Shown one piece after another: positions 24,348 through 38,277 of a DNA stretch of 64,000 nt (position 1 is its first letter; each line of letters begins with the position of its first letter). Source of the DNA: Octopus vulgaris. Taxonomy: Eukaryota. A program made the translations under genes and the position numbers. The notes under the pieces were generated by a model. The model was not told the origin of the DNA, made no database searches, and saw nothing but the letters and a program-made list of their open reading frames with translations. The stretch covers positions 4,836,001-4,900,000 of the forward strand of contig OX597839.1 in NCBI GenBank assembly GCA_951406725.2, written 5' to 3'.

Positions 24348-24602
24348 ACATATACATGTATATATACATATATATATATATATACATATACATGTATATA
24401 TACATATATATATATATACATATACATGTATATATACATATATATATATACATATACATGTATATATACATATATATATGTACATATACATGTATATATA
24501 CATATATATATATACATATACATGTATATATACATATATATACATATATATATCTATACATATATATACATATATATGCAAATATATATATATATATATA
24601 TA
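23615..24602. repeat. ~1-kb (TA)n-derived array with higher-order unit tatatacatatacatg
   Basis: Directly visible. Confidence 0.97.
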
Positions 24603-25464
24603 TTATTAGTGAATTGAAGAAATGGAGTTGAACGAAGATTGAACAGAAATCCTTTTATTGCATTCTACACGTGTTTCGAAGACCACAATTTACCAAATTC
24701 CGATTGAATAAGGAGACCATATTGTGTCTTTCTCTTCAGGAAGAAAAAGGAATTCCGTTGGCAGAACAAAAACAGAACAGAGGCGCAGCAAAGCAAATCG
24801 AACGAGGCGGCTCCTAAGAGCCCATGGCCAAACTGTTTATCAATGTTGAAATCGGGTGGTGGGCGCGTTGAAGATATTTACAGGTCAGGCAGCGGTCAAT
24901 CCGGTGGGTGAGAGCATTGGGTGCGTAGATGTTCTTTGTGATCGAGACTAAGGTTCTGACTATTTTAAGAATATTAGGTGTATTATGTGGGGCGAGGCAA
25001 AATCTACTTAGAAACATGTGTGTGTGAGCTGTTCTATATGTGCGCGGCTTTAAGTTGGTAAAAAGCACTGCCCAATGGTCACTGCTGAAAAATCTGTCAG
25101 GCGGCAGAAATTATTTTATGTGTACGTGTGTTCGTCTAATCATGCTTTGTCAAAAAAACCTCACGTCGTCAAAACAAAACACCATTCGCCTAATGGGAGT
25201 AATTCCCCTTGCAATGGTTAATCAAATCTATCTTAAAAGGCTATTTCAAAAAATCATTTCCAAGGGCTATTTTCATATAAGTAGGGTAACCGGGTGCAGG
25301 TATCATTTGTAAGCGTCATTTATAAGCAAGATAAGTAAAACGCCGCCAATGGGGGCATCGAAAAGCCGACTGCAAAAGTCCGTTTACCATTCTGTCTCTG
25401 GCGAACAATATATGGAAAAGCTCAGAGACACAAAGGTTGCACTTCCTTCTGCCCCTATCAAATG

Positions 25465-25465
<1 letters not shown>
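24603..25465 (-). mobile_element. 3' end of a Penelope-like element: ORF C-terminus, 3' region and hammerhead
   Basis: 25465->25316 reads [48 protein letters not shown], matching the CxLCxxE...N...CxH..F C-terminus of PLE GIY-YIG proteins. A same-strand hammerhead lies ~570 nt downstream. The whole island is inside (TA)n. Confidence 0.75.
24663..24742 (-). ncRNA. Type I minimal hammerhead ribozyme (GUA site)
   Basis: UUC-CUGAAGA-GAAAGACACAAU...AUUGUGGUCUUC-GAAA-C-ACGU-GUA-GAA: intact core, bulged stem II, palindromic loop III, short stem I. Confidence 0.75.
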
Positions 25466-37173: not shown

Positions 37174-37408
37174 GTGGAGGCGCAATGGCCTAGTGGTTAG
37201 GGCAGCGGACTTGCGGTCGGAGGATCGCGGTTTCGATTCCCAGACCGGGCGTTGTGTGTGTTTATTGAGCGAAAAAAAAAACACCTAAAAGCTCCACGAG
37301 GCTCCGGCAGGAGGTGGTGATCCCTGCTGTACTCTTTCACCACTCTAAAGGCGGTGCTCCAGCATGGCCGCAGTCAAATGACTGAAACAAGTACAAAAAA
37401 AAAAAAAA
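37174..37408 (+). mobile_element. Chimeric SINE: family B head plus family C tail plus poly(A)
   Basis: B sequence to ...ctttcaccact (37344), then ctaaaggcggtgctccagcatggccgcagtcaaatgactgaaacaagta and an A-run. Confidence 0.92.
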
Positions 37409-37899: not shown

Positions 37900-37901
<2 letters not shown>

Positions 37902-38231
37902 AATAATTGAGTAGTTGAATGAATTATCTTATTATGGATAATTCGGTTAACCGATACCTGGGCAGCAAATTCACGTCAGAAAAACACGGTTGAAGCTACA
38001 TGCCTAGGGCAGAGATCACGTGCTATCGTGTGGAAATTTGTGTGTTTTTTTTAATACAAATAAATGAAAGAATGGAGTTGAACGACGAATTAACAAAATT
38101 CTTTTATTTTATTTTCGACATATGTTTCGAAGGCTGCATATTCCTAATTTCGAAGGAATAAGGGGTGCATTATGCCGCCTTCTCATCAGGAAAAGCAAGG
38201 AATTTATGTCAGCATCAAGATGCACAAACAA

Positions 38232-38233
<2 letters not shown>
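37900..38233 (-). mobile_element. PLE terminal-repeat fragment related to 24603-24750
   Basis: Shares aatggagttgaacga...ttttatt and the hammerhead with 24621-24742. Sits in (TA)n. Confidence 0.75.
38112..38194 (-). ncRNA. Type I minimal hammerhead ribozyme (GUC site)
   Basis: UUUUC-CUGAUGA-GAAGGC-[42 nt incl. UAUUCCU/AGGAAUA hairpin]-GCCUUC-GAAA-C-AUAU-GUC-GAAAA: perfect core, 5-bp stem I, 6-bp stem II, palindromic loop III. Confidence 0.88.

Positions 38234-38277
<44 letters not shown>

What the first reader, a model, noticed from the sequence alone, without database searches (positions are those of the whole stretch)
24603..25465. PLE 3' end linking a GIY-YIG-type C-terminus to a second long-stem-II hammerhead that covaries with the 38.1-kb one
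Seen: the - strand peptide ...KCNLCVSE...N...CPHWRRF* is followed by a hammerhead at 24742-24663. Relative to the 38.1-kb motif the sequence diverges but structure is kept: N7 U->A, site GUC->GUA, loop III AUAU->ACGU (still palindromic), a stem II G-C pair changed to A-U, the same domain length (54 vs 55 nt), a shared internal CCUUAUUC...GGAAU, and the same downstream AAUAAA...UCGUUCAACUCCAUU. Inference: selection on the RNA fold across divergent subfamilies, and this island identifies the autonomous element that owns the ribozyme.
Basis: partly seen in the sequence, partly recalled or inferred. Interest (0 to 1): 0.72.

Follow-up and report, generated by a model that had tools for sequence, protein, structure and literature searches.

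The report
Long-armed hammerhead, linker-less Hydra retrotransposon
This island is the broken-off 3' end of an abundant Penelope-like jumping gene whose tail carries a predicted self-cutting hammerhead RNA with an unusually long, structurally conserved side arm; the similar motif at 38.1 kb belongs to a sister family with its own protein, and both families insert into TA repeats although they lack the cysteine motif thought to aim them there.

Summary
Real and mostly correctly read. The 863-nt island is a 5'-truncated copy, in (TA)n, of a high-copy Hydra-clade Penelope-like element (family A; natural copies carry an 895-aa RT + C-terminal GIY-YIG ORF, 3.6-kb unit). Peptide and hammerhead are linked in 28 of 30 loci. 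The 38.1-kb hammerhead is not owned by this element: it belongs to sister family B with its own ORF (58-59% identical). Across 31 motifs from five sister families the 12-bp base of domain II is kept by compensatory changes (7 of 12 pairs). Domain II is 53-59 nt, against 10-25 nt in 38 of 38 metagenomic Hydra hammerheads; 7,056 such motifs lie in the genome (control 1). Two further results: the lineage lacks the CxCX5C linker (present in 68 of 70 relatives) yet targets (TA)n; and inverted insertions pair one short and one ~155-nt-longer 3' end (24 of 24 loci). Copies run through the cut site, so uncut or re-ligated RNA is likely the template. Cleavage untested. A variant of a known kind, already noted several times in this genome by this scan.

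The parts
25316..25464 (-). Last 48 codons and stop of the family A ORF: C-terminus of the GIY-YIG endonuclease (CxxC, E, N, CxH); 5' truncation point at about 25464 against (TA)n
24760..25315 (-). 3' UTR / pseudo-LTR of family A upstream of the ribozyme; not alignable to family B apart from short stretches
24642..24759 (-). Predicted type I hammerhead with extended, interrupted stem I (distal arms 24759-24749 and 24652-24642; proximal UUC 24742-24740 with GAA 24665-24663); core CUGAAGA 24739-24733 and GAAAC 24677-24673; palindromic loop III 24672-24669; predicted cut between 24666 and 24665
24678..24732 (-). 55-nt domain II: 12-bp basal stem with compensatory changes, asymmetric internal loop, distal hairpin; private two-base swap at 24682-24681 in this copy
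24621..24635 (-). Conserved 3' motif UCGUUCAACUCCAUU shared by families A-E, 18-32 nt before the short 3' end; likely cis-signal for reverse transcription (inferred)
24601..24612 (-). SHORT 3' terminus of family A, about 63 nt past the predicted cut, running into the (TA)n target
37900..38234 (-). Independent 5'-truncated copy of sister family B, in (TA)n: hammerhead (core at 38189, predicted cut between 38117 and 38116) plus the roughly 150-nt tail, i.e. a LONG 3' terminus

Best explanation
The island is a 5'-truncated insertion of a Hydra-clade Penelope-like retrotransposon whose pseudo-LTR carries a type I hammerhead motif with a long, covarying domain II; the element's GIY-YIG domain likely nicks (TA)n and its reverse transcriptase likely primes at two fixed internal sites of an uncut tandem RNA, with the ribozyme predicted to cut only as a dimer or with protein help. 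Shown: family structure, ORF-ribozyme linkage, two fixed 3' ends about 63 and 212-218 nt past the predicted cut, one of each in inverted insertions, copies continuous across the cut site, covariation of the basal stem II, loss of the Cys linker. Inferred: nicking and target-primed reverse transcription (from the Anolis PLE), two coupled priming events per insertion, conditional cleavage that processes tandem transcripts into units (cut 265 nt before the next ATG) rather than defining the inserted end, and a structural or protein-binding role for the long arm.
For: Copies 87-100% identical across the genome (40 scored of 1,931 candidates; 150 scored of 4,805). Open frames of 885-908 aa in 8 of 12 stretches picked for long frames, and a tandem array with 3.6-kb period. 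Hydra motifs DKT, YRDD, CxxC-E-N-CxH; best fold match I-TevI catalytic domain, Z 6.9, rmsd 2.3, 75 aligned, then T4 EndoII Z 5.3. Ribozyme 615-813 nt downstream of the peptide on the same strand in 28 of 30 loci, 27 with intact core. Structure: 85.8% of 832 cells paired against 34-45% for slid partners; 7 of 12 basal stem II pairs change on both sides; RNAalifold alone recovers 10 of these 12 pairs. A and B 3' UTRs align only over ribozyme plus tail (65.5%, E 5e-12). Ends: of 83 family A ends 47 short, 31 long, 4 run on to the ORF, 1 other; inverted pairs short+long in 24 of 24 loci and 21 of 23 in family B and kin, none with two like ends. No step at the cut: 2,395 / 2,348 / 1,889 exact 20-mer counts after, across and before it; 0 of 30 copies begin exactly there. 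Two initiation sites, both-strand nicking, protein-assisted cleavage and uncut template were shown for the Anolis PLE (PMC11167929).
Against: No cleavage data. The constrained hammerhead fold lies 6.2 kcal/mol above the MFE for this copy (2.0-11.5 in the rows shown). The count of pairs with two-sided change does not beat the shuffle control (122 of 500), rows are related, and five pairs were fixed by the search pattern; on a rough tree each two-sided change is one or two events. The distal hairpin is weaker (78% paired, 1 of 8 pairs covarying) and RNAalifold does not predict stems I or III. Pfam gives nothing for the ORF, Foldseek and the PDB profile search nothing for the EN, and Z 6.9 is middling. 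7 of 30 copies break within 21 nt upstream of the cut, which a cleaved or paused template could partly explain.
Confidence: 0.8

Rival explanations
1. The ribozyme cuts tandem transcripts into monomers that are ligated into circles, and the circle is the template; continuity across the cut site then reflects re-ligation.
For: Proposed for PLE hammerheads in PMC4209133; tandem arrays and partial tandems exist; one contig joins the unit's 3' end to its start (X2).
Against: The same junction exists in genomic tandems, so the contig is no sign of a circle; the Anolis PLE uses uncut RNA in vitro.
Confidence: 0.2
2. The motif is no longer a working ribozyme; the long arms are kept only as a structural signal for the element's protein and the core is a leftover.
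For: Hammerhead fold is not the MFE; no trace of cleavage in copy ends.
Against: Core nucleotides, G10.1-C11.1, NUH site and self-complementary loop III persist across families whose UTRs no longer align; part of this was imposed by the search pattern, but families A and B were found without it.
Confidence: 0.12
3. One reading: the 38.1-kb motif is a non-autonomous derivative moved by the element of this island.
For: About 72% identity over 140 nt; shared tail motifs make cross-mobilisation conceivable.
Against: Family B copies extend upstream into their own RT-EN ORF, 675-aa open frames in 2 of 30 loci, 58-59% identical to family A.
Confidence: 0.04

Closest known systems
Hydra clade of Penelope-like elements, including Hydra-1_Obim of Octopus bimaculoides (Craig et al. 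2021, PMC8557442; abstract, passages, sections 6 and 11, supplement part 2 of 59 and search hits read)
   Same: Single ORF, RT with DKT, C-terminal GIY-YIG without CCHH, CxxC and CxH around E and N, sense-strand hammerhead near the 3' end, (TA)n target, inverted truncated arm with a tail at one end.
   Different: A different family from Hydra-1_Obim by eye (N-terminus and hammerhead differ). CxCX5C linker absent, RWK is RWL, ORF 895 aa with low-complexity inserts, unit 3.6 kb, domain II 53-59 nt against at most 26 nt in the 26 Hydra rows of File S2, tail about 150 nt against 30-40 bp.
PLE-associated type I hammerheads (Cervera and de la Pena 2014, PMC4209133; parts 1-2 of 4 read)
   Same: Short stem III with palindromic loop, predicted dimer activity, families with covariation, thousands of truncated copies, opposite-strand pairs 100-700 bp apart.
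   Different: Helix II there is 4-8 bp; here 12 bp plus internal loop plus hairpin, and no extra base between A9 and G10.1.
Poseidon PLE of Anolis (Frangieh et al. 2024, PMC11167929; parts 1-2 of 4 read)
   Same: Two fixed 3' ends downstream of the hammerhead, AT-rich targets, inserted RNA uncut at the ribozyme.
   Different: There the ribozyme overlaps the ORF start and the two sites are adjacent; here both ends lie in the 5' UTR before the ATG, about 155 nt apart.
PLE-X1_sMoe hammerhead (File S2 of PMC8557442)
   Same: A PLE hammerhead with a domain II of about 53 nt (9-bp stem, 35-nt loop), so long arms have a precedent.
   Different: Spike-moss Chlamys-type, EN-less, rDNA-targeting element; marked as deviating and not analysed.

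Membership tests
Hydra-clade PLE | Single ORF with RT and C-terminal GIY-YIG EN | tested here: met
   895-aa ORF with YRDD and terminal Y..Y-G, R, H, E, N; fold match to I-TevI Z 6.9; 109 homologs at E<=1e-10
Hydra-clade PLE | DKG modified to DKT | tested here: met
   DKT at residue 122, no DKG
Hydra-clade PLE | RWK motif | tested here: not met
   RWL at the aligned place; RW[KR] in 70 of 109 homologs
Hydra-clade PLE | No CCHH; CxxC and CxH flanking E and N | tested here: met
   CNLCVSE, N, CPH; one Cys only inside the core
Hydra-clade PLE | CxCX5C linker before the EN | tested here: not met
   Absent in families A and B and in single decayed copies of C, D, E; present in 68 of 70 metagenomic Hydra ENs and in sister proteins P0002, P0003
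Hydra-clade PLE | No IFD and no N-terminal CxC | tested here: met
   No insertion against homologs between RT3 and RT4; no CxC in the ORF
Hydra-clade PLE | Insertion into (TA)n | tested here: met
   78 of 79 terminal family A ends run into TA-rich repeats
Hydra-clade PLE | Short element (<3 kb) | tested here: not met
   Tandem period 3,624-3,625 nt
Hydra-clade PLE | Phylogenetic placement inside the clade against other PLE clades | tested here: inconclusive
   Quick tree of 29 proteins puts A+B on a long branch among Hydra-like homologs, but no Neptune, Nematis or Poseidon reference was included
Type I hammerhead ribozyme | Core CUGANGA / GAAA / NUH with stems I-III, open stem I | tested here: met
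Type I hammerhead ribozyme | Loop II - stem I tertiary contact | tested here: inconclusive
   No Watson-Crick pseudoknot in an unbiased helix scan of 31 rows; non-canonical contacts not testable
Type I hammerhead ribozyme | Self-cleavage 3' of NUH | not testable with these tools
   Only contigs were available
Non-LTR retrozyme | Non-coding short tandem unit | tested here: not met
   Families A and B carry ORFs; only the unrelated family F fits (583-nt spacing)

The most novel reading that the evidence does not exclude
A Hydra-related PLE lineage that lost the cysteine linker believed to drive (TA)n targeting, replaced it with a Cys-free conserved segment, and gained a 55-nt ribozyme arm that serves as a handle for its own protein dimer, so that one RNP primes twice, 155 nt apart, on one uncut RNA and writes the short+long two-armed insertions.
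Probability: 0.2. Interest if true: 0.68.

Novelty: new variant of a known kind. Interest (0 to 1): 0.4.

Why it matters
Three things become testable. First, whether a hammerhead tolerates or uses a 55-nt domain II; such motifs escape Rfam and number at least 7,056 here. Second, the proposal that the Cys linker drives microsatellite targeting (PMC8557442): this lineage lacks it and still inserts in (TA)n, a natural counter-example. Third, the strict short+long pairing of ends gives a genomic read-out of two coupled priming events, extending the Anolis in vitro result to another clade. Against that, hammerheads in Hydra PLEs, tails at one end and inverted arms are published, and this scan has already described the long arm in this genome several times.

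Tried and rejected
Rfam on the whole window was swamped by AT-repeat miRNA matches (150 of 649 shown); on the island no hammerhead at E<=10. Pfam: nothing for the peptide or ORF; GIY-YIG in 2 of 29 homologs. Foldseek and profile search of PDB: no EN match. Pseudoknot or loop-loop pairing: none beyond the extended stem I. An upstream AUGGG pairing with the conserved CUCCAU: not shared by families D and E. Tail structure on 4 rows: too few to judge. Expression: contigs of four runs guessed to be RNA cover 30 of 30 bins of the unit, but RNA status is a guess and no silent control was laid. A contig starting one base after the cut (X2) is a 61-nt bubble centred on a variant 30 nt away, so rejected as a sign of cleavage. 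The two window hammerheads as a dimer pair: rejected, different families, 13 kb apart, different loop III. A final census of stem II variants returned nothing through a faulty pattern; counts come. Literature searches without a long-domain-II PLE hammerhead paper; an octopus repeat annotation (PMC13282606, 3 passages) has no mention of ribozyme, hammerhead or Hydra in its main text; most subscription papers are not searched, and 58 of 59 supplement parts of PMC8557442 were seen only through search hits.

Full report
Observation. The island 24603-25465 sits between two long (TA)n tracts. The 38.1-kb motif is also real. Rfam does not see the island's motif and folding energy is ordinary (z -0.40 and -1.94).

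The element. The island has close copies throughout the 2.8-Gb own genome. Other copies continue upstream, so the window copy is 5'-truncated. The peptide retrieves at least 150 places at 90-100% identity, some in frames near 900 aa. Of 12 stretches chosen for long frames, 8 hold 885-908 aa open frames with RT and a terminal GIY-YIG domain; a tandem array gives a unit of 3,624-3,625 nt. The protein has 109 homologs and fits the Hydra clade of Craig et al. 2021 (section 11) in DKT, lack of CCHH, CxxC-E-N-CxH and (TA)n insertion. The EN model's best match is the I-TevI catalytic domain (Z 6.9, rmsd 2.3, 75 aligned), a middling score; sequence libraries give little. The host is likely an octopus (inferred from an Argonauta homolog, the published Hydra-1_Obim and earlier scan notes; not tested).

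Linkage and ownership. The ribozyme lies 615-813 nt downstream of the peptide on the same strand in 28 of 30 peptide-retrieved loci, one being the window's own. The 38.1-kb motif belongs to another high-copy family whose longer copies run upstream into their own ORF, 58-59% identical to family A over about 690 aa. So the island names the owner of its own ribozyme only. Three more families (C, D, E) link the same ribozyme type to their own EN C-termini, in 1, 2 and 1 fetched loci; most other fetched copies are too truncated to show an ORF.

Covariation. A pattern for the long-arm motif has 7,056 matches against 1 control; ordinary short-arm motifs number 15,344 against 1,196. I aligned 29 hand-picked variants from families A-E plus the two window copies (family F left out as unalignable). 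The named structure pairs 85.8% of 832 cells, slid versions 34-45%; 7 of 12 basal stem II pairs and 2 of 5 proximal stem I pairs change on both sides. RNAalifold independently finds 10 of the 12 basal pairs and nothing else. Between typical A and B copies four pairs are compensated (pairs 4, 8, 11, 12). Limits: rows are related, five pairs were fixed by the pattern, the pair-count measure does not beat shuffles (122 of 500), and the changes reduce to a handful of events on a rough tree. The window copy itself carries a private swap that damages pairs 4-5. Constraint is also seen in that A and B 3' UTRs align only over ribozyme plus tail.

How unusual is the arm. Among 79 metagenomic Hydra-like loci, 68 reaching the C-terminus were scanned; 38 had a hammerhead and all 38 had a domain II of 10-25 nt. 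The 26 Hydra rows of the published table have at most 26 nt, but a spike-moss PLE there has about 53 nt. An unrelated 583-nt tandem repeat in this genome also has a long arm, so long arms are not confined to this lineage.

Linker loss. The CxCX5C linker is present in 68 of 70 metagenomic ENs and in the nearest sister proteins but absent in A and B and in single decayed copies of C, D and E, which share a Cys-free segment instead. Yet 78 of 79 terminal family A ends enter TA-rich repeats. The paper links this motif to microsatellite targeting; here targeting persists without it.

Mechanism. Family A has two fixed 3' ends: of 83 ends, 47 short, 31 long (23 by strict pattern, 8 by eye), 4 continuing to the ORF, 1 other. 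The short end is 63 nt past the predicted cut, the long one about 155 nt further, and the next ATG 265 nt past the cut. All 24 distinct tail-out inverted insertions combine one short and one long end (26 rows, less one internal pseudo-LTR row and one duplicate locus); random pairing would give about 0.48 per locus (my arithmetic). Family B and kin: 21 of 23, none with like ends. The window's 24.6-kb copy is a short end, the 38.1-kb copy a long end. Copies cross the cut site without a step and 0 of 30 start exactly at it, though 7 break within 21 nt upstream. This fits the Anolis PLE: two internal initiation sites, both strands nicked, uncut template, protein-assisted ribozyme. The 2-bp stem III with a palindromic loop predicts dimer-dependent cleavage. 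These mechanistic steps are inferred; circles remain a rival.

Verdict. A genuine, now well-placed feature: a new long-arm, linker-less variant of Hydra-type PLEs. Most of its anatomy is published for the clade, and earlier scan notes describe the arm in this genome (leads only). Added here are the separate owner of the 38.1-kb motif, the private damage in this copy, the linker loss and the strict pairing of ends.

Noticed in passing
L144, L168, L292-L321 (family F): Unrelated non-coding repeat with 582-584-nt same-strand hammerhead spacing (9 spacings), long domain II, perfect 6-bp stem I and loop III GUAC; retrozyme-like, no own ORF found.
   Followed up: partly
window 25042-25141 (-); L017-L030: A 100-nt segment of the family A 3' UTR is present once in the window copy and twice in tandem in many other copies.
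   Followed up: no
window 37900-38050 (-); L061:5455-5625: The roughly 150-nt tail between short and long ends holds motifs conserved between families A, B and D although the upstream UTRs do not align; candidate protein-binding site.
   Followed up: partly
G000, genome-wide: 15,344 matches to a short-arm hammerhead pattern (control 1,196) from many families, often as opposite-strand pairs.
   Followed up: no
L064-L065: Head-to-tail array of at least four near-identical family A units, one with an 899-aa open frame in full view.
   Followed up: partly
L061:4251-4400; L110; L166; L169; L178: The lineage has a conserved Cys in YQC at the first GIY-YIG strand and a Cys-free conserved segment where relatives have the linker.
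   Followed up: partly
window 37200-37400 (+): Looks by eye like a tRNA-derived SINE next to the family B fragment (resemblance recalled, not tested).
   Followed up: no
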